Source of the DNA: a virus
DNA: 24,513 bases
Reading direction: 5' to 3' (one strand)
UHGV virus genome: UHGV-0864142
Under the pieces are notes generated by a model. It saw only the letters and a list, made by a program, of their open reading frames with translations, did no database searches and was not told where the DNA came from. The translations under genes were made by a program, and so were the position numbers. Shown piece by piece: positions 1 to 20,128 of the stretch; the stretch's first letter is position 1, and every line of letters starts with the position of its first letter.

Positions 1-311
1 TTGCGTGCGGCGAACGATGTGACGCACTGAACGGTGGTGTTAGTCAGAATGTATCTCCAGAACGACAGCCCGATTTCCTTGCTGAAGCCGCGAATCTCTG
101 GCAGGTACATGGCGTGGCAATCGAATGTCAGCGGCTGAATCTCCTGATAGTAAACAATGCCGCCGAACTGACCGTGCACGTTCACCTCAAAGTAACGGCA
201 ATCAGGTTTGTAGTCGTATCCATCACCGTTGTTGCTCCCGGCAATAATGTCAGGGTGATTTCCGACTGCTTCTATCAGGTCGATGTTTCGCGTTGGTTTG
301 AACTGAATCAT
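1..311 (-). CDS. Virion protein encoded directly downstream of the tail needle (P22 gene 14 position); N-terminal 103 codons only, runs off the window start
   Basis: ATG at 311..309 overlaps the needle stop (TAATG). Frame is open to position 3 ([37 protein letters not shown]...). Product is guessed from position only. Confidence 0.5.
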   Translation of the reverse strand, partial: MIQFKPTRNIDLIEAVGNHPDIIAGSNNGDGYDYKPDCRYFEVNVHGQFGGIVYYQEIQPLTFDCHAMYLPEIRGFSKEIGLSFWRYILTNTTVQCVTSFAAR

Positions 312-1264
312 TACTGCTCCGCGATTATCTTGATGGTTGTGGCAGTAAACGCCGCACCATTCGACTGAATGGTTAACGTGCTGCCATTTGTGGCAAGAAA
401 GCCGTCTTTATCCACGCTGAAGAACGTAGCTAACAGGATGTTATCGGTAGTTGTCGCCGAGTTGCGGCTGCTTACCAGTGTGTCAGGAACAGAGCCGGAA
501 AAGGTTAGCTGCATTGACCTGTTGGCTGTTCCGCTGGGCCACGTCCCAACGATCGACAGCTTGAAGAACAAGGTTTTGTTCTCGTTGAACACAACCATCT
601 TGTTGTTAACGGTGTCGAAGAATGGTGCCAACGTGCCGGATGACGGCGTGAGCGTTTTCAGCAGGCTAACAAGGTTAGTCGGCGCTGTCGGGATGGTTAC
701 AGATACTCCTGAGTAAACAACCTCTGATTTCTTGCGCGTGGTGGCATACTCAAGCGCAGATATTCTTGTTGAGTGATCACCAACTGTGCTCTGTAGCGTC
801 GAAATACTTCCTTCTGCCGCTGTGAGCCTGGTATCAAGTGCGTCGATATCGGTTGTATTCTGAGTTATGCGCGCATCATGGTTTGCTAACTCAGATTCAT
901 TGGCAGCAATTCGCGTCTCGTGATCAGCCAGCTCTGTTTCAGCAGCCGTAATCCTTGTTTCATGATCTGCAAGAGTGCTTTCCGCTGCTGCGATTCTATG
1001 TTCATGATTGATGAGAGTTGCTTCAGCAGCTTCAATTCTGGATTCATGGTCTGCAAGGGTGACATCCTGCTCATCATTCTTCACCTGTGCATCATAAGCC
1101 CCCTTCCCTGCTTCGTTGGCCTTGTTCGCCACGTTACCAACATCAGTACCCTGTGCGATAACGTACAGCAGATATGACTGCGAGAAGATATTGCGTGGAA
1201 GGACTGATGTGTCTAGCCGTGTAGCCTGGATGATTACCGGCTCATTGAGATTAGAATCAGCCAT
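311..1264 (-). CDS. Tail needle / cell-envelope-penetrating protein (P22 gp26 family) with C-terminal knob domain, 317 aa
   Basis: N-terminus [18 protein letters not shown]...[14 protein letters not shown]...[13 protein letters not shown] matches the P22 gp26 N-terminal tip as I recall it. Followed by LADHExRIxAAE heptad repeats and a ~140 aa C-terminal extension as in Sf6/HK620-type knobbed needles. ATG at 1264..1262 overlaps the gp10 stop. The track ORF reaches 1366 only through a non-ATG start. Confidence 0.9.
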
Positions 1265-2682
1265 TACTCGATCCTTATCTGGCAGCCTGACAGAGTGACA
1301 GGTGACTTCGTGATAACGCGCAATTTGAAGCCAACATTTTTCCTGATGCGCCCGACTCGCTTCCACAAAACACGTTTGTCGTAAACGAACGGTTCATTCT
1401 GTTCAATCATCTGCTCACGTCCGTAATTTATGCCGTCAGTGGTTGCAGAGAGGAACAGGCGGTCGGCGTACTGCGCAACGCCAGTTGACGATTCAACCTC
1501 AAGATCGAACACTCTGGCGTTATCCGCTTTGAACAGAGGAGTAAACAGCAGATGTTCCTGTTGCTTGTCGTACTGGCTGCTGATATCGAATTGCAATTTC
1601 CCGGTCACCGATTCCAGCTTATCGCCGCACGTTATCTGATTGCCTTCGTAAATGAAGTCGATAGCGCGGTACACATCGTCATACAGTCCTGTTTTCAGTA
1701 CGCACCATTGCGGACCATTGGCGCTTGAAGATGCGTCGTACACGAGAACATGGCGCGGAAGATGGATAATCAGCAGCTCATGCGCATCAAATCGCAGCGA
1801 TTCCATCACGCCATCAGCCAGTTCATCAGCAGTGTAGGAGCGGAGGATTTTCTCAATGCTCGCACTGGCGATTGGTGACACCTGACCGGAGCCGATGATG
1901 TACACAGACGGCGCACCTGTTGCCGGATTGCTGATGAACGCATATGAATCAGAGAATGGCGTTTTGCAGTAAGTCCCGGCGATGCCTTTTTGCACCATCA
2001 GTGATGGCTGTGCGACATACAAAGCAGCACCAACGGTGGTTGCGCCAGTCAGGGAGAAATATTCAATCGTCGATGAACCAAAGCAGACGATGAAGTCTCG
2101 CCATGTTCCGATGCCGATGATACCGTCAGGCTGAGACTCAGCACGATATTGTGCGCTGTAACGGTCAGGATGCGATTCGTCTTCAAGGTCAGTGATAAAC
2201 CATGAATCAGTGCCGTCTTTTGACCACGCATAACGACCACGTAAGCTCGTAATGTCACGGACCGAACCTAACTCATACTGCGTGAATCCGCTGTCTGTAG
2301 GCCAGTTTGAGACGGTTTTAACCGTGCCATCATAGCGATACTCGACCAGTTGACCATTAACGCCTACCGCCTGTGATGTCCGACCGTGCGCCATTGATAC
2401 ACGACCACTTCCGGCAACATCACCGACTTCGCTTTCGCCCTTATACAACTTGCCACCACACACGCGATAAACAGCACTCTGCGCCATGTTGTACTCGACG
2501 CCGCGCGATACGCCGTTCACATCAGAACGTTTGGCAATGCCCGGGAATGAGCGAAGATATCCGCTGCTGTTCAGGATTTCTTTGGGTGTAGCCAGAATAT
2601 TCACTGGCAGATAGTCGATATAGTCGGCGTTTCGAAAGTCTTTGCCGACACCTTTCATAAGCGGAAGTTGCTGAATCGGCAT
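1264..2682 (-). CDS. Tail accessory / head-completion protein, P22 gp10 family (472 aa)
   Basis: Same length as P22 gp10 and same gene order (gp4, gp10, gp26). Recognised by recall. The stop overlaps the needle start. Confidence 0.85.
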
Positions 2683-2691
2683 TTATTCACC

Positions 2692-3153
2692 TCACGTACT
2701 CGGATCATCTTTCTCGATGTAAAACCGATTCCACGTAAACGCGCTTTTGTTACCACTACCGCGAGGCATGTCATTTCGCCGCTCAAGTGGTGGTATTTTG
2801 GTTAAAGCGATGCAGATTGTCTGATATGCACTGTCAGCAGCGGTAAGGAGAGCGTCTGACGGCTGAATGACGTTATCCATGCACACTTGCACAGCGAGTT
2901 TCAAAGCGACGCCATCATTTGCCCATGCAGGGATACCTGAATCATCGTCAGGTAACGGCATGATGCCGTTTTCTGTATCAGCAAACTGATACCCAAGCTC
3001 GATACCTTTAGCCTGCCATGCTGCCATCATGTCTTCGAGGTCATTAATGGCATCTTCAATTGCCTGAGGGTCAGCATCTGTCAACGTGGCATTGGAATAC
3101 AGCCCAGCTTTTCGTAAAGCCTTTAGAACGAGATCACCCTTCGTTTTCGCCAT
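2692..3153 (-). CDS. Tail accessory factor, P22 gp4 family (portal-binding head completion protein)
   Basis: 153 aa ORF directly upstream of the gp10 homolog in conserved P22-like order. Family call rests on size, position and recall. Confidence 0.8.
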   Translation of the reverse strand: MAKTKGDLVLKALRKAGLYSNATLTDADPQAIEDAINDLEDMMAAWQAKGIELGYQFADTENGIMPLPDDDSGIPAWANDGVALKLAVQVCMDNVIQPSDALLTAADSAYQTICIALTKIPPLERRNDMPRGSGNKSAFTWNRFYIEKDDPST

Positions 3154-3322
3154 CTTCTTCCGCCTTAGCCACTTTTTGCTTCGTTGCGGTTTCTTCAGGA
3201 GTTTTTACCCAACCTTTTTTCAGGTGAGATTTAACTTCTTCGTCATCAACAATGATGTAATCGACAGCAAACTGACCACAGGTGATCATGTTGCCAGGCT
3301 TATAGAGCATTGTTCGTGCCAT
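3134..3322 (-). CDS. Small hypothetical protein (62 aa) between coat and gp4 genes
   Basis: ATG at 3322 is preceded by GGGAGAAG (SD) 3 nt upstream and lies just after the coat terminator. The track ORF starts earlier at a TTG. The 3' end overlaps the gp4 start by 20 nt. Confidence 0.5.
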   Translation of the reverse strand: MARTMLYKPGNMITCGQFAVDYIIVDDEEVKSHLKKGWVKTPEETATKQKVAKAEEDGENEG

Positions 3323-3333
3323 TGTCTTCTCCC

Positions 3334-3356
3334 AATAAAAATGGGGCCGAAGCCCC
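3334..3356 (-). terminator. Intrinsic terminator downstream of coat gene (GGGGC-UUCG-GCCCC followed by AUUUUUAUU)
   Basis: Perfect 5-bp GC stem with a UUCG tetraloop and a U-rich tract on the minus strand, read directly. Likely partial, to over-express coat relative to downstream genes. Confidence 0.55.
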
Positions 3357-3363
3357 ACCAAAA

Positions 3364-9235: not shown

Positions 9236-9654
9236 TTTCCGAACAGAGTGCTCATCGGTGATGTTTCAATCTGAATTGCGCCGCCGTCCTTACCGACAAG
9301 CTCGTTAGTTACCTTGTCGCCATACTTACGGGGATTCATTCGGGTCAGCGCCCATTTGCGGGTATCAACGCGAAGTCTTGCCTTTGCCACCTCAGCAGCA
9401 TCTGGAATCGCAGTGTCCGCAATTTCGAATATCTCTTCGAAAATAGAATCAGCTCGTGCCTCAGTTGCCTTCGCGTACTTGTCGCGAAAATCCTCATGCT
9501 TTGCCAACCAGCGGAAAACAGTGGACTTATCCGGCATACCAGGACGCTTACATACTTTCAGCAAACTTTCGCCAGAAGAAAGCAACGAGCAGATATCGTC
9601 AGCCACCTCCGGCATATAATCAGAGGGGCGACCAGCTTTTGGTTCAGTCGCCAT
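9232..9654 (-). CDS. Terminase small subunit (TerS), Sf6 gp1-like (140 aa)
   Basis: 140 aa, as Sf6 gp1. Sequence MATEPKAGRPSDYMPEVADDICSLLSSGESLLKVCKRPGMPDKSTVFRWL recalled as Sf6 small terminase. Directly precedes terL. Confidence 0.88.
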   Translation of the reverse strand: MATEPKAGRPSDYMPEVADDICSLLSSGESLLKVCKRPGMPDKSTVFRWLAKHEDFRDKYAKATEARADSIFEEIFEIADTAIPDAAEVAKARLRVDTRKWALTRMNPRKYGDKVTNELVGKDGGAIQIETSPMSTLFGK

Positions 9655-9677
9655 ATTTATCTCACTTAATTGTCATT

Positions 9678-9857
9678 TCAGGCTGAGGACTCTTTCGCGC
9701 CTTCAATCAGTGACTGCTTCAGCAATTCGAGTGTGCCAATCGCCTCGCATAAACTGATTTCACCATCGTAATCATGGATGACGCTTTCCAGCCTCTCGTA
9801 TAGCTCTTGAGTAATTGGGAATTTCTTCTCCTTACCAAGATCAACGACGCTTGTCAT
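9678..9857 (-). CDS. Small hypothetical protein (59 aa) upstream of terS
   Basis: Not in the supplied track (below its size cutoff). ATG 9857..9855 with AGGAA about 6 nt upstream; open to TGA at 9680..9678. Translates MTSVVDLGKEKKFPITQELYERLESVIHDYDGEISLCEAIGTLELLKQSLIEGAKESSA. Confidence 0.4.
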   Translation of the reverse strand: MTSVVDLGKEKKFPITQELYERLESVIHDYDGEISLCEAIGTLELLKQSLIEGAKESSA

Positions 9858-9866
9858 AGAGGATTC

Positions 9867-10154
9867 CTATAATTTTGAATATCCAGACTCAAATACCTCA
9901 GCAGGAGAATATGATTCATATCCATCCTCATAGACAACGTAATAGCCTCCAGACATTGGTCGGTGCTTACAGATATATTCCGCGCTAACATCAAATGCTG
10001 CGTATTTCTTATCATCCGGATGAATAATTGCCCCATAACTAGAAGAGCCAGTCTTACCAGACTGATCTGGGTTTGGCTTATGTTCTATAGAGCCAATCTT
10101 CAGGGCGCGAACTTTTTTGTGGCACTGGTATCTCGGCATTTCTTGTTCAGTCAT
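9867..10154 (-). CDS. Hypothetical protein (95 aa), late-region cargo
   Basis: ATG 10154 with GGAGTG SD. Tightly packed with neighbours (3-nt gap upstream, 9-nt gap downstream). No family recognised. Confidence 0.6.
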   Translation of the reverse strand: MTEQEMPRYQCHKKVRALKIGSIEHKPNPDQSGKTGSSSYGAIIHPDDKKYAAFDVSAEYICKHRPMSGGYYVVYEDGYESYSPAEVFESGYSKL

Positions 10155-10157
10155 CTC

Positions 10158-10400
10158 TTACACTCCGGTAGTGAACAGGTCTAACGCTTCCTTCGATTTA
10201 CGCACCGCTTCGATAGTGCGGGTCGTGATATCTGAATTAGCGCCACCTGACTGGAAGTGAATTTTGAATAGCTCAAGCTTCAGTTCGTCAGTGCCGATGA
10301 ATTGAAATGCTTCTTCTGCGGCTGCGTTCTGGTTCATGACCAGTTTGTAAATCTCTAACTGGAATTTCTGTTCTTCAGTCATGGGAATAATCTCTGCCAT
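10158..10400 (-). CDS. Hypothetical protein (80 aa), late-region cargo
   Basis: ATG 10400 with GGAG 8 nt upstream. No family recognised. Confidence 0.6.
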   Translation of the reverse strand: MAEIIPMTEEQKFQLEIYKLVMNQNAAAEEAFQFIGTDELKLELFKIHFQSGGANSDITTRTIEAVRKSKEALDLFTTGV

Positions 10401-10503
10401 TGTTGGCTCCGTTTATCCGTTAAAAGGGATATCAGTTAAGTTATCCCGTGTAGGGTATAAGCCATTATCAAAGCCACTCTGTAGGGAATGGCTTTTGTAA
10501 TAA

Positions 10504-10875
10504 CTACTGTTCGCTTAACTTCTGCTTCAGCAAGTAACCTTCCAGCATCCAGATTTTATTCACCGCATTTTCGCGGGCGATCTTGCGACCGATCTCCGGG
10601 TCGAAGTTTTCCGGGCTGGCGCAGGCGCTTTCGCCGGTGACGGTGAAGCCGTTGCGCAGCACCAGGACGCAGAATGTAAGAAGCTTTAATGCTTCCTGAC
10701 TTTCGGTTAAATCAAGCGCGGATTTGTATGTCGCCATAGCGCCCTCTCCGCCAATACCATCGTATGCGGTGAAGCAATGCTCGCTTTTAATCACGTCTTC
10801 GATGTGCTGCGGGGTGATTCGCGGAGCGGTTTTGCCTTTCTCAACGATTTCTTTTTCGATTTGCTGGTCGTTCAT
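10504..10875 (-). CDS. Hypothetical protein (123 aa), late-region cargo
   Basis: ATG start at 10875. Same orientation and operon context as the flanking genes. I could not name a family. Confidence 0.6.
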   Translation of the reverse strand: MNDQQIEKEIVEKGKTAPRITPQHIEDVIKSEHCFTAYDGIGGEGAMATYKSALDLTESQEALKLLTFCVLVLRNGFTVTGESACASPENFDPEIGRKIARENAVNKIWMLEGYLLKQKLSEQ

Positions 10876-11062
10876 AATTATGACCCTGTAGAGTAGTTGC
10901 TTGATTAGGATGTCTTTCCATCAGTCCGCCACCACAAAGAATCTTTTTTGCCATAAGGCTGGAGGTTCATCTTTCAGTGGCTGCCAGTGTTATTTCCCCA
11001 CTTACTGGCTTGGGTTGTTTCGCTGTACTGCCGTAATGCAAAAACTGGATTAACCTGCGAAA

Positions 11063-11593
11063 TCACACCATTCCGGGCAAATACATTTGCACTTCATTTG
11101 CCGCTCTCTCACGTGCAACATGAAGCAATCTTTTTCGCCCACCAACGCCCCACTTAGCCATTTGGCTTGCGCACTGGCTTATCGCTTTGGTTTCAGTATT
11201 GATGATGTGATCGATTCTATTCAGACGGGACATTGCGCCAACGCCGAGACGGACGACCGTTTTGAAAACTTCATAAACTTCGATTTCAAATTCCGGCTTA
11301 ATCCATGCTGCATATCTGATTGCCAGAAGTTCAACACCCCACACACCTGGTTCTGCACCACCTTTGATTATTTTAAGTGGTTGAATTTGTTCCAAAGTGC
11401 TTTTTTGCACTTTGGCCTCCAGTGCTTTTATGAAGCGTTTTATCTGCGCGCTACGCAAAAACTGGCTTGGGCGCTGTTGCTCTGTAGCCTCTCCATTTGC
11501 AACTGCTGCTGCATGGAGATCGTTTAAGTTGTAGCGTCCATCCTCATCAACACGAACGGACACACCATTGACAATAACTGTTGGGTACTTCAT
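11063..11593 (-). CDS. KilA-N domain protein (176 aa)
   Basis: N-terminal VNGVSVRVDEDGRYNLNDLHAAA...QRPSQFLRSAQIKRFIKAL is typical of KilA-N (APSES-like) DNA-binding domains. ATG at 11593. Confidence 0.7.
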   Translation of the reverse strand: MKYPTVIVNGVSVRVDEDGRYNLNDLHAAAVANGEATEQQRPSQFLRSAQIKRFIKALEAKVQKSTLEQIQPLKIIKGGAEPGVWGVELLAIRYAAWIKPEFEIEVYEVFKTVVRLGVGAMSRLNRIDHIINTETKAISQCASQMAKWGVGGRKRLLHVARERAANEVQMYLPGMV

Positions 11594-11735
11594 CAGTGAT
11601 TACCTTTTAGTGATGAACCTTGTCACACAGGATTCCGGCCCACAGAAAGGCACCGATCACCAAACCGGCATCCTCAAGGGTCATCCTGAAAGGTTCTGTG
11701 TTCAGAAGTCGCGCGTGTGAAGCGCGTTTGTTGCA

Positions 11736-11764
11736 GATATAAAAAAGCCCCGCGAATGCGAGGC
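11736..11764 (-). terminator. Intrinsic terminator downstream of Rz (7-bp GC-rich stem, loop AUUC, then UUUUUUAU)
   Basis: Minus-strand RNA GCCUCGC-AUUC-GCGGGGC-UUUUUUAUAUCUG. Shares the UUUUUUAUAUCUG tail with tR' further upstream. Confidence 0.6.
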
Positions 11765-11939
11765 TAAATCCTGGTATTTGTAATGAACTGGCTCTTATCT
11801 CAACGCAGCCCCTTACTGCGCGCCAGATGCTCAATATCAAGCATCAGCAATGAGATGTTTAATCTGGATTCACTCCAGAAGTGATCACCACCCTGTCTAC
11901 AGAGCCAGATGTGAAGGATGATGAGTAAAATTATCGCTA

Positions 11940-12398
11940 TCATCGAAGGCATTGCGTCCTGATGTACTCCTGCAGGTAGTTAACCTGCGCGGTTATCTTG
12001 TCGATTCCACTTCGGAGACGGTAATAATTGAGTTCAGCATCTGCTGTAAGTCTTGGGCTTTCTCCATCGCCCATGCTGCTGGCTCCGGTCGTTGACTTTG
12101 CACAGGTGGCGGCGACTTGCAGGCGCTTACGCCCAGCAGAAACATCAGCACGGAGACTTTCGATAGTCGCATTAGCATCAGCAAGCTCCTTTGTGTATCT
12201 GGCGTCAAGTTCTGCTACATCACGTTGACGCTGCTGCATGTCAGCGATGGTGGCGGTCGCCTGCTTCAGCTCACTGACTTTTTTATCACGCTGTTCTTTG
12301 TAGGCGATGGCGTTATCACGGTAATGATTAACAGCCCATGACAGGCAGACGATGATGCAGATAACCAGAGCGGAGATAATCGCGGTTACTCTGCTCAT
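11940..12398 (-). CDS. Rz: i-spanin Rz (152 aa)
   Basis: First ~30 residues [31 protein letters not shown] match lambda Rz as recalled; the rest is divergent but still Rz-like coiled coil. ATGA overlap with the R stop. Confidence 0.93.
11993..12178 (-). CDS. Rz1: o-spanin Rz1, lipoprotein embedded in the +1 frame of Rz
   Basis: [20 protein letters not shown] has a signal peptide and lipobox (LGVSAC), followed by a Pro-rich segment, entirely inside Rz. Start at 12178 or 12172 is ambiguous. Confidence 0.8.
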
Positions 12399-14470: not shown

Positions 14471-14655
14471 CGTCTTCCCCTCTTGCCCTGTTTGACCATC
14501 AGGACGCCGTTAACTATTACATGACACTCGCCTTTGCTGTCTCGGTTGTACTTGAGCACTGTTCCTCTTGCGCAGGAAAGCATCCTTGCCACTTCGGTCT
14601 GATTGCCTCGTGTCTGGATAAGAAGCTCTGGTATCGTTTGAATTGTGGCGTTCAT
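14467..14655 (-). CDS. ninH: NinH (62 aa)
   Basis: TIPELLIQTRGNQTEVARMLSCARGTVLKY...IVNGVLMV resembles lambda NinH as recalled. Position directly upstream of Q. Confidence 0.8.
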   Translation of the reverse strand: MNATIQTIPELLIQTRGNQTEVARMLSCARGTVLKYNRDSKGECHVIVNGVLMVKQGKRGRR

Positions 14656-15014
14656 GCGTTCTCCAGTTCGGTGATTTTTATTCCAAGCCTTCCGCCTGGT
14701 ACTTTCACACCACGAATTACGCGAATGTCATCGAATTGCTCGTCGTCTTCCGCAAATCCGGCATGGATAAGGGAGTCGAGTAAACCTTTCAGGATGTTAT
14801 CGAGGTCGCGGCGGCGGGAGTCTGGAACGTCTGCGATGACTTTTATGCGGAGTCGTGATTTGGTGAAAATGTCTAACTTGAGTTGGCGGATGATTTGCTG
14901 AACGTCTTTTCGGTATTTCTGGCCTTTATCGCTGATGTAGTATTGGCTTCCCCGTCTTCGCCAGTAGGTGTTCACCGACGGCGGGTATGGAAGCACAAAC
15001 TGATATTCGTTCAT
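14652..15014 (-). CDS. rusA: Holliday junction resolvase RusA (120 aa)
   Basis: LPYPPSVNTYWRRRG...DVPDSRRRDLDNILKGLLDSL...GGRLGIKITE matches the RusA family (DLP12 RusA as recalled). Confidence 0.9.
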   Translation of the reverse strand: MNEYQFVLPYPPSVNTYWRRRGSQYYISDKGQKYRKDVQQIIRQLKLDIFTKSRLRIKVIADVPDSRRRDLDNILKGLLDSLIHAGFAEDDEQFDDIRVIRGVKVPGGRLGIKITELENA

Positions 15015-15301
15015 GGCTTAATCTTCCCCTCCTTCAGCAGTATCGCCTGCGTCCTGATCACGCCTTCCAGGTGGTAAAGTCTGGCGTCTTTGTTGTCGAG
15101 GTTATGGGTGCGTCGGTCGATTTCATCGTGACACGCGCTACAAGCCCATGCTCCGATCAGGTCGTCAGGTTTCATTCCCGTTCCGCAAATTCCAGCCATC
15201 CGGTAATGTGCCAGAACTGTAGTTTCAGGGTTGCCATTGCATACGCCGTAAATACGTACCTGGCATTCTCTGCCGCGTGCTTCTTTGCGTAGATTAGCCA
15301 T
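15011..15301 (-). CDS. ybcO: YbcO-like Cys-rich protein (DUF1364 family, putative nuclease), 96 aa
   Basis: 96 aa, Cys/His-rich, directly upstream of rusA as in E. coli DLP12 ybcO-rusA. Family call from recall and synteny. Confidence 0.7.
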   Translation of the reverse strand: MANLRKEARGRECQVRIYGVCNGNPETTVLAHYRMAGICGTGMKPDDLIGAWACSACHDEIDRRTHNLDNKDARLYHLEGVIRTQAILLKEGKIKP

Positions 15302-16023
15302 TAAGCAGCCTCCCCTGTTACTTTCAGCATTCCGTTATCGAGCAGCTTTCTGGTCAGCCACTGTTGACCACGCCCGGTGATTTTTGTGGTGAACGATATC
15401 TGTATTCCGTGATTTGTGTTGACCGCTGTTTCTTTCACTGTGAAATAGCCGCGCTCCATATATTCCTGCATTGGCACATTTCGCCGGGAACCTGAAGCAA
15501 TAAGGATTTTGTGATCTCGCATCCACGCAAACAGTTTGTTTGGACCAATTCCAACAACCTTTGCAAAGTTTCCAATCAAAATTCCGCTGGCCTCGCCAAC
15601 GCGATCGGCAAACTCAACTTTAGGTGCGGCAATTGCGAGCTGGTTTTCCAGTTGCATTTTCTGCTCAGCAAGGTCAGCAGCAAGGCGCAACGCTTCTGGT
15701 AGCGTTTTTGGGATATTAACCGCAGCTTCTTCAAGCTCTCGCCAGCGGTCAACAAGGCGAGCGGTGAACTCTGGCGACAACTGGGCAACAACGACAATAC
15801 TGTCTCGCTTACCTTGTTCGCCTTCGAAAACGTAATGCTCGTACTGAACATTGAACCCTAAGTTATTGATTCTTTCGGAAACCTCAATTTGAGGAAGCCG
15901 GATAACACCATTTTTAGCCAGCGTTTCGATGGTACGTTTCACATTGTCATGACGCTTACCCACCAACTCAGCGATTTCAATGCTTGTCATTTTGATGGCA
16001 TTGCCATTTATTAACTCATTCAT
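15301..16023 (-). CDS. Phage antirepressor: Rha-family N-terminal domain fused to KilAC C-terminal domain (240 aa)
   Basis: N-terminal IKMTSIEIAELVGKRHDNVKRTIETL is a Rha-type regulatory domain. The C-terminal half is KilAC-like (Ant C-terminal domain). Domain calls from recall. Confidence 0.7.
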   Translation of the reverse strand: MNELINGNAIKMTSIEIAELVGKRHDNVKRTIETLAKNGVIRLPQIEVSERINNLGFNVQYEHYVFEGEQGKRDSIVVVAQLSPEFTARLVDRWRELEEAAVNIPKTLPEALRLAADLAEQKMQLENQLAIAAPKVEFADRVGEASGILIGNFAKVVGIGPNKLFAWMRDHKILIASGSRRNVPMQEYMERGYFTVKETAVNTNHGIQISFTTKITGRGQQWLTRKLLDNGMLKVTGEAA

Positions 16024-16192
16024 CGTCTTCTTCCTCGTACATTGAGCTATTCGGATCGCTCATCAGTTCTGCGCAGCAGTGCTCACACATGTGAACTTCC
16101 AGCACATGCAGCTTCTGACCGCAGTTAGCGCACGTTAAAGCCCGCTCGACGCTTTCTTTCTGGTATTGAAGGGATTGGGATGGGCTAAGCAT
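16016..16192 (-). CDS. ninF: NinF (58 aa)
   Basis: Not in the supplied track. Translates [58 protein letters not shown], matching lambda NinF as recalled. Stop overlaps the antirepressor start by 8 nt. Confidence 0.8.
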   Translation of the reverse strand: MLSPSQSLQYQKESVERALTCANCGQKLHVLEVHMCEHCCAELMSDPNSSMYEEEDDE

Positions 16193-16556
16193 TATTGGCG
16201 TCCTGAATCATGAGAAATACAATCATGGCGGCGCGGAGGGGATTTTCATGTATAGCTCGCTTAGATTTACAGTAGGCCACACCGCGTGCACCCCACTCGT
16301 CTTCATCGAGATTGATAATGCTAATCCTGTATTTTTCAATAATCGGCCATGCGTCTGCTGGGTTTGCGCATGGGTTAAAGGAACCGCGCTCAACTTCTAC
16401 TTCAACTGCGTCTCCGTTTACAATGTCTCCCTCAAATGAGACAAACACCATATCGCCATTCTCACCTTCTTTGTAATCCGGTGATCCGTTATGAATAGCT
16501 TCGAATACAGCCACGTTAATTTCAAAATCACTTAACTGTGAATAATCCATTGTCAT
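16185..16556 (-). CDS. Hypothetical acidic protein (123 aa) in the ninX position between ninE and ninF
   Basis: ATG 16556 forms an ATGA overlap with the ninE stop; the track ORF extends upstream but that would overlap ninE by 40 nt. Family not recognised. Confidence 0.55.
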
Positions 16557-16729
16557 TTCCTCGCACGATGTCTTAGCCACCGGATATCCCACAGGTGAGC
16601 CGTGTAATTGAAGGTTTTTACGTCAGATTCTTTTGGGATTGGCTTGCGTTTATTTCTGGAGCGTTTCGTTGGAAGGTATTTGCAGTTTTCGCAGATGATG
16701 TCGGTGAAACTTCGTCGCTGTCGTCTCAT
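16553..16729 (-). CDS. ninE: NinE (58 aa)
   Basis: [58 protein letters not shown] matches lambda NinE as recalled. ATG 16729 forms an ATGA overlap with the methyltransferase stop. Confidence 0.8.
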
Positions 16730-17253
16730 GCCGCCCTCCTGACGCCCTGCCCGATCGCCATCAATGCCGCTTTGGATACGGTAGTAAACATCCGTCGAGG
16801 ACTGATGAACGGTCGCCAAATCAGCAGCATGGAGCCTTTACTGTTTCCCTTCTTCTCCAGCCCTGTCGATGGTTCGATAAAATTAATCCGTCCATCAGTG
16901 ATAATGCGAACTTCGTCAACACTCTCCAGAGCCTTGCTGAACCATCCGACAGACATATCCTCTGGCACAAGCATCACTACCGTCTGTCGCTGTTGTATGC
17001 TCTGCTCAGCGGCTTTTTCCACCCACGGCCTGATATTGCTGTACGGTGGGTTATTCCAGATTGCACCGTGGCTTATCCACTCAGAATTGAGCGCGTCGTC
17101 GGCCTCAGTTAGCCAGTGAGCACACAGAGCATTTTTGTCGCTCGCTGCCGAATCCAGCCAGAATCCAAACTCAATATCCAGTGCATCAAAAAGCCAAAGC
17201 GGCGTTTGCCAGCAGTCCTTGTCGTGTGCTGGCGTATTTGATTTGATAGTCAT
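16726..17253 (-). CDS. Phage DNA N6-adenine methyltransferase (Dam-like), 175 aa
   Basis: NPPY motif (WNNPPYSN) typical of N6-adenine/N4-cytosine MTases, plus a [13 protein letters not shown]-terminal region. ATG 17253 forms an ATGA overlap with the ninB stop. Occupies the lambda ninC/ninD position. Confidence 0.78.
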
Positions 17254-17690
17254 GCTGCCCGATCTCCCCATCGCGCTTTCCATTCGAGAGCCAGTCGCGC
17301 TTCGTCTGACCACTTAACGCCACGCTCTGTACCGAATGCCTGTATAAGCTCTAATAGCTCCGCAAATTCGCTTACACGCATCCTGCTGGTTGACTGGCCT
17401 ATTACCACAAAGCCATTCCCGGCAAGGTTAGGAACAACGTCCTGCTGCTTTAAGGCTGCGGTAAACACACACTTCCAGCTTTCTGCATCCAGCCAGCGAC
17501 CATGCCATTCAACCTGACGAGAAACGTCACCTAAGCAGGCCCATAGCTTCCTGTTTTGGTCTAAGCTGCGGTTGCGTTCCTGAATGGTTACTACGATTGG
17601 TTTGGTTGGGTCTGGAAGGATTTGCTGTACTGCGTGAATAGCGTTTTGCTGATGTGCTGGAGATCGAATTTCAAAGGTTAGTTTTTTCAT
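17250..17690 (-). CDS. ninB: NinB / Orf recombination mediator (146 aa)
   Basis: Near-identical to lambda NinB as recalled (MKKLTFEIRSPAHQQNAIHAVQQILPDPTKPIVVTIQERNRSLDQNRKLWACLGDVSRQVEWHG...). Confidence 0.95.
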   Translation of the reverse strand: MKKLTFEIRSPAHQQNAIHAVQQILPDPTKPIVVTIQERNRSLDQNRKLWACLGDVSRQVEWHGRWLDAESWKCVFTAALKQQDVVPNLAGNGFVVIGQSTSRMRVSEFAELLELIQAFGTERGVKWSDEARLALEWKARWGDRAA

Positions 17691-17883
17691 GACTTCCCTC
17701 TCTAACAGATTTCAGGTTATTCCACTCCGTTACCGCACTGCGATAATTCGCGGCCGCCACAACAGCGTGGTTAGCGCAGTAGATTTGGCACCCGTTCTCC
17801 ATGTCGAATATTGTCGGTGATTTTCCGCATTTACATTTTTTGGCACGCGGTGCGTCTGAACACATTCCGTTAACGGTGTCCAT
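17671..17883 (-). CDS. Small Cys-rich (zinc-ribbon-like) protein, 70 aa
   Basis: ATG 17883 with GAGGGGG SD. Cysteines at CKC...C...C spacing. Overlaps the ninB start by 20 nt. No family recognised. Confidence 0.55.
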   Translation of the reverse strand: MDTVNGMCSDAPRAKKCKCGKSPTIFDMENGCQIYCANHAVVAAANYRSAVTEWNNLKSVREGSHEKTNL

Positions 17884-17940
17884 CAGGATCCCCCTCGTTC
17901 TTAATCCAATAAAAAAGGGTTTTCTTCACTGAACACTCCT

Positions 17941-18126
17941 TTATTTTTTATGCCTGTAACCCCATTCTTCCAGCAACCTTGCGGCGTACCACCCAAGAAA
18001 CAAAGGAAAGAACATTACAATGAGATATTCCCCGCCACGGTCAATGTTCGAAATTGACCAGATTACGATGTAACCAGTGCAGGACAGGAATATTACAAAC
18101 CCCAAAAAGCTACTTCGTCGACTCAT
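17941..18126 (-). CDS. Small membrane protein (61 aa, two hydrophobic segments)
   Basis: ATG 18126 with AAGGAG 5 nt upstream, directly after the stop of the 87-aa gene. Hydrophobic LGFVIFLSCTGYIVIW and LIVMFFPLFLGWYAA segments, basic C-terminus. Confidence 0.55.
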   Translation of the reverse strand: MSRRSSFLGFVIFLSCTGYIVIWSISNIDRGGEYLIVMFFPLFLGWYAARLLEEWGYRHKK

Positions 18127-18128
18127 GC

Positions 18129-18392
18129 TCACTCCTTCACTTTGATTCCAGCGGCGCGGATAGCCTCTACATCGCTTTCGTATTGCGATTCTGCACCTGA
18201 GTCATAGCCAATGTGATAATCACCGGGAAGTGGGCCTTTCTTTGGCTTTTGCAGCTCAATCTCGATAGCTGCTCGCGATGCCTGCCACGCTTGCCAATAC
18301 ATCTCAACCATATTGGCGTATATTTTATTTTTAGGATCACATCCGGTGTAATTTTCAAACCATTCTTCAAACTGCTTTCTTGATTCGTCCAT
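18129..18392 (-). CDS. Hypothetical protein (87 aa)
   Basis: ATG 18392 with GAGGGT SD. Soluble, aromatic-rich N-terminus (FEEWFENYTGCDP...MVEMYWQAWQ). Family not recognised. Confidence 0.6.
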   Translation of the reverse strand: MDESRKQFEEWFENYTGCDPKNKIYANMVEMYWQAWQASRAAIEIELQKPKKGPLPGDYHIGYDSGAESQYESDVEAIRAAGIKVKE

Positions 18393-18409
18393 CGATACTT
18401 ACCCTCAGT

Positions 18410-18616
18410 TCAACTCACAAAACGCCACGCCATTTTTGCTACAGCGACAGGCGCAACACCGATAATCACCCAGACAAATGCAGCGCCAAACAACGTATAC
18501 CATGGGTCTTTACCGTCATTCACAAGACGAATGTAGCTATGCAGAACAATAAAAAACGTCAGAAGAATCCATCCAACGCCAACGCATTTGAATGCGACGA
18601 GCATAAACTCAGCCAC
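18410..18616 (-). CDS. Small membrane protein (68 aa, or 64 aa from ATG 18604)
   Basis: GTG 18616 preceded by GGGGGAGAG SD. Two predicted TM segments (GVGWILLTFFIVL and LFGAAFVWVIIGVAPVAVA). Confidence 0.5.
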   Translation of the reverse strand: MAEFMLVAFKCVGVGWILLTFFIVLHSYIRLVNDGKDPWYTLFGAAFVWVIIGVAPVAVAKMAWRFVS

Positions 18617-18629
18617 GATTTACTCTCCC

Positions 18630-18664
18630 CCAAATAAAAAGGCCTGCGATTACCAGCAGGCCTG
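18630..18664 (-). terminator. Intrinsic terminator downstream of helicase gene (tR2-like position)
   Basis: Minus-strand AGGCCUGC-UGGUAAUC-GCAGGCCU (perfect 8-bp stem) followed by UUUUUAUUU. Confidence 0.6.
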
Positions 18665-18691
18665 TTATTAGCTCAGTGATGTAGATGGTCA

Positions 18692-20128
18692 TCAGAATCC
18701 TCCTTTCTTCTTGGACTGCGGTTCCTCGCGTTCACGGCGGCGCATTTCAGCAGACTGTTGGTCTGTGTCATAAATAGCGCCATTTGCCTGAATGCAATAC
18801 ACCGTGCCGGTATTGCCATGACGGTTGAGACGAAGGATTAGTTCGGTTTCACCAGGTGGAACACTGTCATCAAAAGCACCTTCCCGGTGGATCCCCACCC
18901 AATAATCGCAATCCTGTTCAATCTGCCCTGTATCGCGCGAGTCACTTGGTAATGGGCGTTTATTGGTTCGGCTTTCCAATGCGCGGTTAAGCTGTGTCAG
19001 AAGCACAACAACGCAATCAAGCTCTTTGGCAAGGTTCTTCAGTCCTTTGGTGATCATGCCGTAAGCAAGGTCATTGCGATCGGCCTTCTCAGCGGTCATT
19101 AGTGTCAGGTAATCGACCAGAATCATGCCAACACATCCTTTTTCTCGCTTGATTCGACGGCTTTCGCTGACGATTTGAGCCAGAGATAATCCCGGCGTGT
19201 CGTCGATGTAAAGCATGTCGATTTCACTCAAGCGATTAGCTGTTTCGATCGCCCTGTTGAAGTCACCATCGTAATCACCCTGATAGCCGTCATCAGCGTC
19301 ATTTGTCGCCGGAAGGTAAAAAATATTCGGGTTAACACCAGACTTCTGCCCTACCAGTTTTTCCAGTATCTGATCACCTGGCATTTCAAGGCTGAACATC
19401 AAAGCGGGCTTTTTCTCATACACTGCGCAATTGATTGCCATCTGGCTGTATAGCGTCGTTTTCCCCATCTTAGGGCGAGCGCCAATGACAAACAGAGAGC
19501 CTTTCACCAGACCTTTCGGTGACAGCATCCTGTCCAGCGATGGGATCCCTGTGCTCATTCCCCGTTGTTCGCCTGATGGGTCAAATCGCTTCTCAAGGTC
19601 GCTAACCCAGTCTTCCATGACCTCACCAAATGAACGAAGGCCGCGACGCGATCCGGTTTTTGCATGGTCTGTCAGTTGCGTGAAAATCGACTGAATAGCT
19701 TCGTACTTCTGCGTTGCAGTCATTCCGTTGCGGGAATAGAGCAATTCCGTCGCTTCAGTCATGCGGTTGATGGCGTAGCGTTCCATTGCGGTTTCACGAA
19801 CCTGCATTGCATAGGCAACGATGTTTGCTGCGCTTGGCGTGTTCTTTGCGATCTCAGCGATATAAGCAAAACCGCCAACAGACGCCGTTAACGATTTACG
19901 CTCCAGTTCATCGAAAAGCGTCAGGCCATCTACTGGCTTTTGCTCCCGGTGCATTCTGGTTATTTCTTCGAAAAGGATTTTGTGTGGTCGGCTGTAAAAT
20001 GAATCAGGCTTCAGCATCGCCAGAACTTTCTGGACGCGCTCACTGCTGTCATCATCCAGAAGCAATCCACCAATCACCGCCTGCTCTGCCTCGATGCTAT
20101 GGGGCGGCGCATAAAAATTATCGGTCAT
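18692..20128 (-). CDS. Replicative DNA helicase, DnaB family (P22 gene 12-like), 478 aa
   Basis: DnaB-type N-terminal domain (HSIEAEQAVIGGLLLD), Walker A GARPKMGKT and RecA-like core. ATG 20128 with GAGGGTG SD. The track start at 20143 is a GTG extension. Confidence 0.92.
   Translation of the reverse strand: MTDNFYAPPHSIEAEQAVIGGLLLDDDSSERVQKVLAMLKPDSFYSRPHKILFEEITRMHREQKPVDGLTLFDELERKSLTASVGGFAYIAEIAKNTPSAANIVAYAMQVRETAMERYAINRMTEATELLYSRNGMTATQKYEAIQSIFTQLTDHAKTGSRRGLRSFGEVMEDWVSDLEKRFDPSGEQRGMSTGIPSLDRMLSPKGLVKGSLFVIGARPKMGKTTLYSQMAINCAVYEKKPALMFSLEMPGDQILEKLVGQKSGVNPNIFYLPATNDADDGYQGDYDGDFNRAIETANRLSEIDMLYIDDTPGLSLAQIVSESRRIKREKGCVGMILVDYLTLMTAEKADRNDLAYGMITKGLKNLAKELDCVVVLLTQLNRALESRTNKRPLPSDSRDTGQIEQDCDYWVGIHREGAFDDSVPPGETELILRLNRHGNTGTVYCIQANGAIYDTDQQSAEMRRREREEPQSKKKGGF

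What the first reader, a model, noticed from the sequence alone, without database searches (positions are those of the whole stretch)
311..740. Sf6-type C-terminal knob on the tail needle
The last ~140 residues form a separate Ser/Thr-rich beta-type domain absent from P22 gp26, as in knobbed needles. The knob is the distal tip contacting the cell envelope and may influence host range or the DNA-ejection trigger.
Basis: partly seen in the sequence, partly recalled or inferred. Interest (0 to 1): 0.28.

Follow-up and report, generated by a model that had tools for sequence, protein, structure and literature searches.

The report
Known Sf6/HS1-type phage needle knob

Summary
Window 311-1264 (minus strand) is an intact 317-aa tail-needle gene of a P22-like (Lederbergvirus) phage or prophage. 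It lies between the gp10 tail-hub gene and the gp14-like gene.

- **Knob:** Residues 175-317 (window 314-742) are the Sf6-type knob. They hit Pfam PF16532 at E = 1.9e-108.
- **Solved structure:** Residues 167-317 are 100% identical to the crystallised HS1 knob (PDB 4K6B) and 99% identical to the Sf6 knob (3RWN).
- **Functional residues:** All L-glutamate-pocket residues and the Ser-Arg-Asn tip triad are present.
- **P22 comparison:** P22 gp26 aligns only to residues 1-139, so the tip is not P22-type.
- **Whole protein:** It is 98% identical to the E. coli HS prophage needle. The identical protein is already named "tail needle knob protein" in NCBI, and about 15% of complete E. coli genomes carry this knob.

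Two details are not. HK620 has a P22-type tip, not a knob. Published P22 chimeras argue against a host-range role, although the tip does change DNA-delivery kinetics.

My own additions are small. The knob is under strong purifying selection (dN/dS about 0.04). Relatives show a recombination junction at the shaft/knob border. A Salmonella P22-like phage also carries a diverged knob.

Verdict: already known, low interest.

The parts
311..1264 (-). Complete tail-needle gene (P22 gene 26 / Sf6 gene 9 homologue), 317 codons plus TAA
   Evidence: Translation. PDB and Pfam hits. 98% identical (311/317) to the E. coli HS prophage HS1 needle ABV04705.1. The exact protein is in NCBI as 'tail needle knob protein [Escherichia coli]'.
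1085..1264 (-). N-terminal plug / tail-hub-binding domain, residues 1-60
   Evidence: Matches P22 gp26 N-terminal fragment 8EAP_B (residues 3-64, E = 1.6e-27) and all gp26 structures. Nearly invariant among Sf6, JEP4 and HK620.
743..1084 (-). Trimeric coiled-coil shaft, residues 61-174, about 16-17 heptads. It is 35 residues (5 heptads) longer than the Sf6 shaft.
   Evidence: AF2 predicts a helix over 70-179 with pLDDT 79-98. Heptad print-out. Gaps of 14+14+7 residues against Sf6. HS1 has 16 heptads against 11 in Sf6 (PMC3741392).
935..1061 (.). Three 42-nt direct repeats in the shaft-coding DNA, corresponding to 14-residue [14 protein letters not shown] units
   Evidence: the repeat finder family D1, identities 60-79%. 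TRF found nothing at its threshold. A plausible substrate for the observed length variants of 282, 288, 303, 316 and 317 aa.
314..742 (-). Sf6/HS1-type needle knob, residues 175-317 (TNF-like jellyroll, trimeric in the crystal structures)
   Evidence: PF16532 at 1.9e-108. 4K6B at 1.3e-90 and 3RWN at 1e-89. The AF2 knob model superposes on 4K6B and 3RWN with TM 0.76, at 100% identity to 4K6B chains A and B over 151 columns. The next hits are the TNF family (EDA-A1, Eiger), PRD1 P5 and C1q.
329..724 (-). L-glutamate pocket residues: E181 (724-722), K235 (562-560), S283 (418-416), D285 (412-410), L290 (397-395), K312 (331-329)
   Evidence: All six are present at the HS1 numbering. Their roles come from the 1.1 A HS1 structure (PMC3741392).
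461..469 (-). S266-R267-N268 triad at the distal tip. [quoted passage not shown]
   Evidence: Present. Role from PMC3741392.
1264..2682 (-). gp10-type tail hub gene (head closure Hc3), upstream neighbour. Its TAA overlaps the needle ATG as TAATG.
   Evidence: phrog_578 at E = 6.8e-228. Junction sequence.
1..311 (-). gp14-like DUF2824 gene (5' part, cut by the window end), downstream neighbour. Its ATG overlaps the needle TAA as TAATG.
   Evidence: phrog_651 at 1.9e-50. PF11039 DUF2824 at 2.8e-37. Junction sequence.

Best explanation
Window 311-1264 (minus strand) encodes the trimeric tail needle of a P22-like podophage or prophage of Escherichia/Shigella, of the long 'HS1' variant of the Sf6-type knobbed needle.

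Shown here:
- The N-terminal ~60 residues are the gp26-type domain.
- Residues ~61-174 form a long helix with a heptad pattern.
- Residues 175-317 are the knob. They are sequence-identical to the solved HS1 knob, with the L-glutamate pocket and the Ser-Arg-Asn tip intact.

Inferred from the solved structures and published work on P22, Sf6 and HS1:
- Three chains form a coiled-coil shaft about 210 A long.
- The N-terminal hairpins plug the gp10 tail-hub channel and hold the packaged DNA in.
- The three C-terminal jellyrolls form a TNF-like knob about 45 A wide, which projects beyond the tailspikes and touches the outer membrane first.
- After the tailspikes digest the O-antigen and the particle reorients, the needle is expelled. 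The ejection proteins then leave and build the trans-envelope conduit.
- The tip domain is not the host-specificity determinant and is not strictly essential, but it modulates the rate of DNA delivery.
For: - **Family and structure.** Pfam PF16532 'Sf6-type phage tail needle knob' scores 360 bits over residues 136-317. PDB 4K6B (HS1 knob) and 3RWN (Sf6 knob) match at E = 1e-90 over residues 165-317. The only mismatch to 4K6B is at residue 166, which lies outside the cloned HS1 fragment 167-317. P22 gp26 structures cover only residues 1-139.
- **Functional residues.** All Glu-pocket and SRN residues are conserved.
- **Predicted fold.** AF2 gives a confident helix over 70-179 and a beta-rich knob (pTM 0.65). 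Its best structural matches are 3RWN and 4K6B (TM 0.76), followed by TNF-family proteins, PRD1 P5 and C1q.
- **Whole protein.** It is 98% identical to the HS1 needle, with all six differences at or before residue 138.
- **Gene context.** The order is canonical: TerS, TerL, portal, scaffold, coat, gp4, gp10, needle, gp14, with TAATG coupling at both junctions.
- **Selection.** Mean pairwise dS is 0.22 and dN is 0.008 in 9 DNA-ascertained knobs, a ratio of 0.036.
- **Function.** PMC3741392, PMC9728967 and PMC9400499.
Against: - **Identity.** Nothing argues against the identity.
- **Trimer state.** It was not predicted here.
- **Model confidence.** The single-sequence AF2 models have low to medium confidence in the knob: pLDDT 29-52 in the full-length run and a mean of 65 for the isolated domain.
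- **Mechanism.** All functional tests of this knob were done in P22/Salmonella chimeras, not in an Escherichia or Shigella host. The kinetic effect seen with the HS1 hybrid was not seen with the Sf6 hybrid, which also carried Sf6 shaft sequence. The knob's own contribution therefore remains unresolved.
Confidence: 0.93

Rival explanations
1. The knob is a receptor-binding, host-range-determining domain. Like the adenovirus fibre knob or PRD1 P5, it would bind a specific Escherichia/Shigella envelope component (for example OmpA, OmpC or LPS core), and that binding would trigger needle release.
For: - The fold is TNF-like and PRD1-P5-like, and such folds are typically receptor binders (PMC3741392).
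- In 2013 the knob was found only in P22-like phages of Escherichia and Shigella.
- Purifying selection is very strong: dN/dS 0.036, and the Glu pocket is invariant even in a 77.5%-identical Salmonella-phage knob.
- Sf6 needs OmpA or OmpC as secondary receptors (PMC9728967).
- The authors themselves leave open a Shigella-specific role.
Against: - P22 with the HS1 or Sf6 knob infects Salmonella with normal titre and infectivity.
- Glu-pocket single and double mutants are normal, and even a foldon tip gives viable phage.
- Sf6 host-range-expansion mutations all map to the tailspike, where the OmpC-binding region is placed (PMC9400499).
- Knobbed needles now also occur in a Salmonella and a Klebsiella P22-like phage.
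Confidence: 0.1
2. The C-terminal region is only a diverged P22-type needle tip (the inverted coiled-coil tip of gp26), not a separate fold.
For: The N-terminal 139 residues are clearly gp26-like.
Against: - No P22 gp26 or HK620 needle structure aligns beyond residue ~163-184.
- Residues 175-317 match PF16532 and the solved knobs.
- In the MAFFT alignment with HK620, the knob region falls mostly opposite gaps.
- The fold search returns jellyroll/TNF folds, not coiled coils.
Confidence: 0.01
3. The signal in 311-740 comes from a gene on the plus strand. The 115-aa ORF at 369-716 stays open and conserved in every homologue examined.
For: The ORF is intact and nearly invariant in all 9 sequences compared: the window and 8 homologues.
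Against: - Its third codon positions coincide with those of the needle gene, so synonymous needle changes are mostly silent in it too.
- It has only one Cys and no Tyr or Trp, so wobble changes can hardly create stops (and inference).
- It has no Pfam or PHROG hit at E <= 0.1.
- No promoter-like site was found in 1-1500.
- Many comparable antisense ORFs of 100-295 aa lie inside other structural genes of this window.
Confidence: 0.02

Closest known systems
Tail needle of E. coli HS prophage HS1 (EcHS_A0316, ABV04705.1; knob structure PDB 4K6B)
   Same: Same length (317 aa) and same 5-heptad-longer shaft. Identity is 311/317, and residues 139-317 are identical, including the whole crystallised fragment 167-317, the Glu pocket, the SRN triad, A305 and S169.
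   Different: Six substitutions in the N-terminal domain and shaft, at residues 8, 54, 62, 100, 107 and 138. No complete E. coli genome in the collection, which should include strain HS, matches the needle DNA above 97.6%.
Shigella phage Sf6 gene 9 needle (knob structure PDB 3RWN; Pfam PF16532)
   Same: Same three-domain architecture and the same gene position between the gp10 and gp14 homologues. The knob differs at a single residue, A305 versus Ser270.
   Different: Sf6 is 282 aa. The window's shaft is 35 residues (14+14+7) longer and its sequence has diverged.
P22 gp26 and HK620 gp26 (P22-type needle tips; PDB 2POH, 3C9I, 5BU5)
   Same: Homologous N-terminal plug domain and proximal coiled coil (residues 1-139 for P22, 1-79 for HK620), with the same role and the same locus.
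   Different: Their C-terminal tip is a different, unrelated domain of about 90 residues. They have no knob.
Stand-alone knob homologues in Vi01-like, RB43/T4-like, Mu-like Vibrio and Aeromonas phages
   Same: The same domain at 28-58% identity, found in 290 phage records. Glu-contacting residues are conserved according to PMC3741392.
   Different: They are not attached to a gp26-type needle. They are short proteins of unknown function in myoviruses and siphoviruses.

Membership tests
Sf6-type tail needle knob (Pfam PF16532, Phage_tail_NK) | Profile match above the curated threshold, covering the whole domain | tested here: met
   360.2 bits against a cut-off of 27. Residues 136-317 match profile positions 1-175 of 175.
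Sf6-type tail needle knob (Pfam PF16532, Phage_tail_NK) | Sequence identity to the solved knobs 3RWN and 4K6B | tested here: met
   E = 1e-89 and 1.3e-90. Residues 167-317 are identical to the 4K6B construct.
Sf6-type tail needle knob (Pfam PF16532, Phage_tail_NK) | L-glutamate-contacting residues E181, K235, S283, D285 (plus L290 and K312) and the S266-R267-N268 tip triad | tested here: met
   All are present at the expected positions. Definitions from PMC3741392.
Sf6-type tail needle knob (Pfam PF16532, Phage_tail_NK) | Jellyroll / TNF-like fold | tested here: met
   The AF2 monomer (pTM 0.65) superposes on 3RWN and 4K6B at TM 0.76. The next hits are EDA-A1, Eiger TNF, PRD1 P5 and C1q. The model is of medium confidence, so the stronger argument is identity to the crystal structure.
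Sf6-type tail needle knob (Pfam PF16532, Phage_tail_NK) | Homotrimer with three bound L-glutamates at the subunit interfaces | not testable with these tools
   Only single-chain prediction is available. This is inferred from 100% identity to 4K6B.
P22-like phage tail needle (gp26 family) | gp26-type N-terminal plug domain followed by a heptad-repeat coiled coil | tested here: met
   Residues 1-139 align to 2POH, 3C9I and 4ZKP at E about 1e-42, and residues 3-64 align to 8EAP_B. Helix over 42-179. Heptads.
P22-like phage tail needle (gp26 family) | Gene located between the gp10 (tail hub) and gp14 homologues in a P22-like morphogenesis operon | tested here: met
   phrog_578 upstream. phrog_651 and DUF2824 downstream. 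Full operon from TerS to gp14. The same order is seen in Sf6, JEP4, HK620 and eight contigs.
P22-type needle tip (gp26 residues ~141-233) | Homology to the P22 or HK620 C-terminal tip domain | tested here: not met
   P22 and HK620 needle chains give no alignment beyond residue 139 or 163. HK620 aligns opposite gaps in the knob region.

The most novel reading that the evidence does not exclude
The knob family may have a selected, envelope-specific function that the P22/Salmonella chimera experiments could not see. One example would be contact with an outer-membrane component, or a glutamate-linked step, during infection of its natural hosts.

What makes this possible is the selection pattern. 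No Glu-pocket or SRN-triad residue changed across synonymous divergence up to dS 0.39. The pocket is also unchanged in a 77.5%-identical Salmonella-phage knob whose synonymous sites are saturated.

If this is true, it would be a property of the whole known family, not something special to this window.
Probability: 0.2. Interest if true: 0.45.

Novelty: already known. Interest (0 to 1): 0.07.

Why it matters
It matters little as a discovery. The domain has had a Pfam family, two crystal structures (3RWN and 4K6B), a cryo-EM placement in the Sf6 tail and a dedicated functional study since 2011-2022. NCBI already names this exact protein 'tail needle knob protein'.

Its practical value is annotation. 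It marks the window as a P22-like (Lederbergvirus) phage or prophage with the long HS1-type knobbed needle.

The open question belongs to the family rather than to this locus: what are the strictly conserved knob and its glutamate pocket for in the natural host? The selection figures here (dN/dS about 0.04) and the Salmonella and Klebsiella examples slightly update the 2013 picture of a 'recent arrival, Escherichia/Shigella only'.

Tried and rejected
- **Tandem repeats.** Tandem Repeats Finder on 250-1350 found nothing. The 42-nt shaft repeats appeared only with the repeat finder.
- **Structure prediction with an alignment.** I therefore ran single-sequence models only.
- **Full-length AF2 model.** It was confident for the shaft but poor for the knob (pLDDT 29-52). 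The isolated-domain model was good enough (pTM 0.65) for a Foldseek check.
- **Large protein searches.** An identical sequence already has a 1.1 A crystal structure, so a deeper alignment could not change the answer.
- **dN/dS, first attempt.** The first calculation used contigs retrieved by exact protein identity, so dN = 0 there is an ascertainment artefact. I repeated it on sequences found by DNA similarity.
- **Antisense ORF 369-716.** Considered and rejected as a by-product of coinciding wobble positions. My first frame calculation, which assumed a codon-aligned antisense frame, was wrong and is not used.
- **Other scans.** No tRNA, no Rfam family, and no promoter-like site in 1-1500. The single terminator-like hit (1373-1391, plus strand) lies inside gp10 and is at the chance level.
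- **Original Sf6 knob paper.** PMC3162447 is not held. Its content is cited only through PMC3741392 and PMC9728967.
- **Source genome.** Not identified. The best complete E. coli genome covers 81% of the window at 96% identity.

Full report
**1. What is at the coordinates**

The finding's range lies inside a minus-strand ORF. The ORF listing reports it as 311-1366 from a GTG. The real start is the ATG at 1264 ([10 protein letters not shown]...). That ATG overlaps the stop of the upstream gene as TAATG and has an AAGGA ribosome-binding site 7 nt upstream. The product is 317 aa, and the TAA stop at 313-311 overlaps the ATG of the next gene, again as TAATG.

Range 311-740 corresponds to the stop codon plus residues 176-317. 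These 142 residues are 28.2% Ser+Thr, against 20.5% in the shaft and 11.7% in the first 60 residues.

**2. Identity of the domain**

- Pfam gives PF16532, "Sf6-type phage tail needle knob", at E = 1.9e-108. The score is 360 bits against a cut-off of 27, over residues 136-317 and the full profile.
- Against all PDB sequences, the best hits are the HS1 knob 4K6B (E = 1.3e-90) and the Sf6 knob 3RWN (E = 1e-89), both over residues 165-317.
- The single mismatch to 4K6B is at residue 166. That lies outside the cloned HS1 fragment 167-317 (PMC3741392), so the crystallised sequence is reproduced exactly.
- P22 gp26 structures (2POH, 3C9I, 4ZKP) align only to residues 1-139. The HK620 needle (5BU5) aligns to 1-79 and 125-163. 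The tip is therefore not of the P22 type.
- Every residue the HS1 structure paper singles out is present: E181, K235, S283, D285, L290 and K312 around the bound L-glutamate; S266-R267-N268 at the distal tip, where S266 and N268 contact the bound phosphate; and the HS1-specific A305 and S169.

**3. Structure check**

- The full-length model has a confident helix over 70-179 (pLDDT 79-98), followed by a low-confidence beta region.
- The isolated residues 165-317 gave pTM 0.65 and seven main strands.
- Foldseek against the PDB returned 3RWN and 4K6B first (TM 0.76, 98-100% identity). The next hits were TNF-family proteins (EDA-A1, Eiger), PRD1 vertex protein P5 and C1q domains. This reproduces the published description of a TNF-like jellyroll similar to PRD1 P5.

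**4. The whole protein and its context**

The needle has three parts.

- **Plug domain.** A gp26-type N-terminal domain, residues 1-60 or so, matching 8EAP_B at E = 1.6e-27.
- **Shaft.** A heptad-repeat shaft over residues 61-174.
- **Knob.** Residues 175-317.

Compared with Sf6 gene 9 (282 aa), it carries 14+14+7 extra shaft residues, which is five heptads with the register kept. The knob differs at one residue. It is 311/317 identical to the E. coli HS prophage HS1 needle ABV04705.1, and all six differences lie at or before residue 138. HS1 is described as having 317 codons and 16 heptads against 11 in Sf6. The shaft DNA contains three 42-nt direct repeats at 935-1061. These are a plausible source of the length variants seen in relatives: 282, 288, 303, 316 and 317 aa.

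The neighbours are the canonical P22-like late operon: TerS, TerL, portal, scaffold, coat, a small ORF, gp4, gp10, needle and gp14-like DUF2824. The rest of the window is a typical lambdoid early and lysis region. The same gene order occurs in Sf6, JEP4, HK620 and eight contigs that encode the identical protein.

**5. How common it is**

- The exact 317-aa protein sits in a cluster of 1430 members and is named "tail needle knob protein [Escherichia coli]" by NCBI. It is indexed in 49 blocks of the assembly collection.
- The knob DNA matches 821 of 5426 complete E. coli genomes at 93.5-98.1% identity.
- The closest phages are JEP4 (96.8% nt, 99% aa), vB_EcoP-720R6 and Gally.
- No record is identical at the DNA level. 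The whole window is a new mosaic, with a best match of 81% coverage at 96% identity. That is normal for this phage group.

**6. How it works**

Shown here: the sequence, the domain organisation, the fold assignment and the operon position.

Taken from the literature:
- The needle trimer plugs the tail-hub channel through a quasi-six-fold N-terminal helical bundle, and the knob sits at the distal end (Sf6 cryo-EM, PMC9728967).
- In P22 cryo-tomography, the needle touches the cell surface while two tailspikes hold the O-antigen. The particle then reorients, the needle is lost and the ejection proteins form a tube (as summarised in PMC9400499).
- P22 carrying the HS1 knob (HS1 codons 174-317) or the Sf6 knob and shaft gives normal titres and infectivity on Salmonella.
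- Glu-pocket single and double mutants are normal in plaque formation and in K+ release.
- The HS1-knob hybrid releases K+ at 40-70% of the wild-type rate, and a foldon tip lowers infectivity to 0.13.
- The authors conclude that the tip is not a host-specificity determinant but affects the kinetics of DNA delivery. They propose either a role in the trigger or a mechanical "hole-punch" role.

I adopt that explanation. The caveat is that no experiment has been done in a native Escherichia or Shigella infection.

**7.

- HK620 is not a knobbed phage. Its needle is 233 aa with a P22-type tip, and it is the type member of tip subtype A.
- A host-range role runs against the chimera data and against the mapping of Sf6 host-range mutations to the tailspike.

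(a) *Purifying selection.* In nine knob sequences found by DNA similarity, mean pairwise dS is 0.22 (maximum 0.39) and mean dN is 0.008, a ratio of 0.036. The N-terminal 60 codons have dS 0.32. The low amino-acid diversity that Leavitt et al. attributed to recent arrival is therefore at least partly due to strong purifying selection. An earlier calculation on contigs chosen by exact protein identity is biased for dN and is used only for dS patterns.

(b) *Mosaic pattern.* Among 317-codon needles, differences cluster in codons 1-47 and 186-314, while the shaft is almost identical. One contig (L008) is identical to the window through codon 185 and then has 19 differences. This places a recombination junction at the shaft/knob border.

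(c) *Other hosts.* A Salmonella Lederbergvirus (MW790496.1) has a gp26-type needle with a knob 77.5% identical to this one, with every pocket and tip residue kept. A Klebsiella phage also carries a knob. This updates the 2013 statement that no Salmonella P22-like phage has this tip.

**9. Other strand and other signals**

The plus-strand ORF 369-716 (115 aa) is open and conserved in all nine sequences compared: the window and eight homologues. Its third codon positions coincide with those of the needle gene, and it has almost no codons that a wobble change could turn into a stop. It has no Pfam or PHROG match. Comparable antisense ORFs are common in this window. I treat it as a by-product.

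No tRNA, Rfam family or promoter-like site was found in or near the region.

**10. Verdict**

This is a known domain in a known protein, with a solved structure of the identical sequence. Novelty: already known. Interest: low.

Noticed in passing
L018 463-1329 (Salmonella phage vB_SalP_ABTNLsp11242, MW790496.1); also Klebsiella phage phiKp_30, LC768498.2 13779-14627: A Salmonella Typhimurium Lederbergvirus has a 288-aa gp26-type needle with an Sf6-type knob. The knob is 77.5% identical to the window's, synonymous sites are saturated, and all Glu-pocket and SRN residues are kept. A Klebsiella phage carries a knob at about 90% nt identity. This contradicts the 2013 generalisation that knobbed needles occur only in Escherichia/Shigella P22-like phages and in none of the Salmonella ones.
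   Followed up: partly
window 314-742 compared with L001, L002 and L012-L017: The knob is under strong purifying selection: mean dS 0.22, dN 0.008, dN/dS 0.036 in 9 DNA-ascertained sequences. Its dS is not much lower than that of the N-terminal domain (0.32). Low protein diversity is therefore not explained by recent acquisition alone.
   Followed up: yes
window 311-1264 compared with L008 3001-3954 (Logan SRR15140843): L008 is nucleotide-identical to the window through codon 185 and then has 19 differences in codons 186-318. Among 317-codon needles in general, differences cluster in codons 1-47 and 186-314 while the shaft is nearly invariant. This indicates domain-wise recombination with a junction at the shaft/knob border.
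   Followed up: partly
window 369-716, plus strand: A 115-aa antisense ORF inside the knob-coding region is open and nearly invariant in all 9 sequences compared (the window and 8 homologues). Its wobble positions coincide with those of the needle gene, it has no family hit, and it is best read as a by-product of constraint on the sense strand.
   Followed up: yes
window 935-1061: Three 42-nt direct repeats (60-79% identical) encode the 14-residue [14 protein letters not shown] shaft units. Relatives have needle lengths of 282, 288, 303, 316 and 317 aa, which suggests length change by repeat-mediated recombination in heptad multiples.
   Followed up: partly
L009 2507-3001 (GCA_027218705.1); E. 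coli hits H15 and H36: Some relatives carry a 164-aa HNH_3 or NUMOD4 homing-endonuclease-like gene next to the needle gene. In L009 it lies between gp10 and the needle; the exact position in the two E. coli hits was not checked. The window lacks it, and its gp10 and needle genes overlap as TAATG.
   Followed up: no
L015 593-1129 (E. coli O157:H7 EC4115, NC_011353.1) and L014 456-1130: Defective prophage remnants keep an N-terminally truncated needle pseudogene. The knob part in EC4115 is 142/142 aa identical to the window despite 23 synonymous differences. In L014 the truncated needle abuts an anti-RecBCD gene on the other strand.
   Followed up: partly
window 9654-11940 and 17690-18692: Between TerS and the Rz spanin lie three ORFs: 95 aa, 123 aa, and a 176-aa Rha-like regulator (phrog_129). 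The first two match only parts of longer PHROG profiles (1-94 of 182 and 6-106 of 239), so they may be gene fragments. The 1-kb stretch between NinB and the DnaB-like helicase holds only small ORFs of 87 aa or less, which were not characterised.
   Followed up: no
window 14655-17313, minus strand: The nin-region cargo includes a DNA methyltransferase (16729-17313, phrog_111), an Ant/KilA-type anti-repressor-like protein (15304-16023), an HNH endonuclease (15014-15301) and RusA (14655-15014). This is ordinary lambdoid mosaic content.
   Followed up: no
L007 494-1105 (Logan DRR741619): One relative has a 203-aa WDGH-domain gene (PF25311) between the coat gene and gp4. The window and most others have only a 61-86 aa ORF in that position (window 3137-3361, phrog_1175, unknown function).
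   Followed up: no
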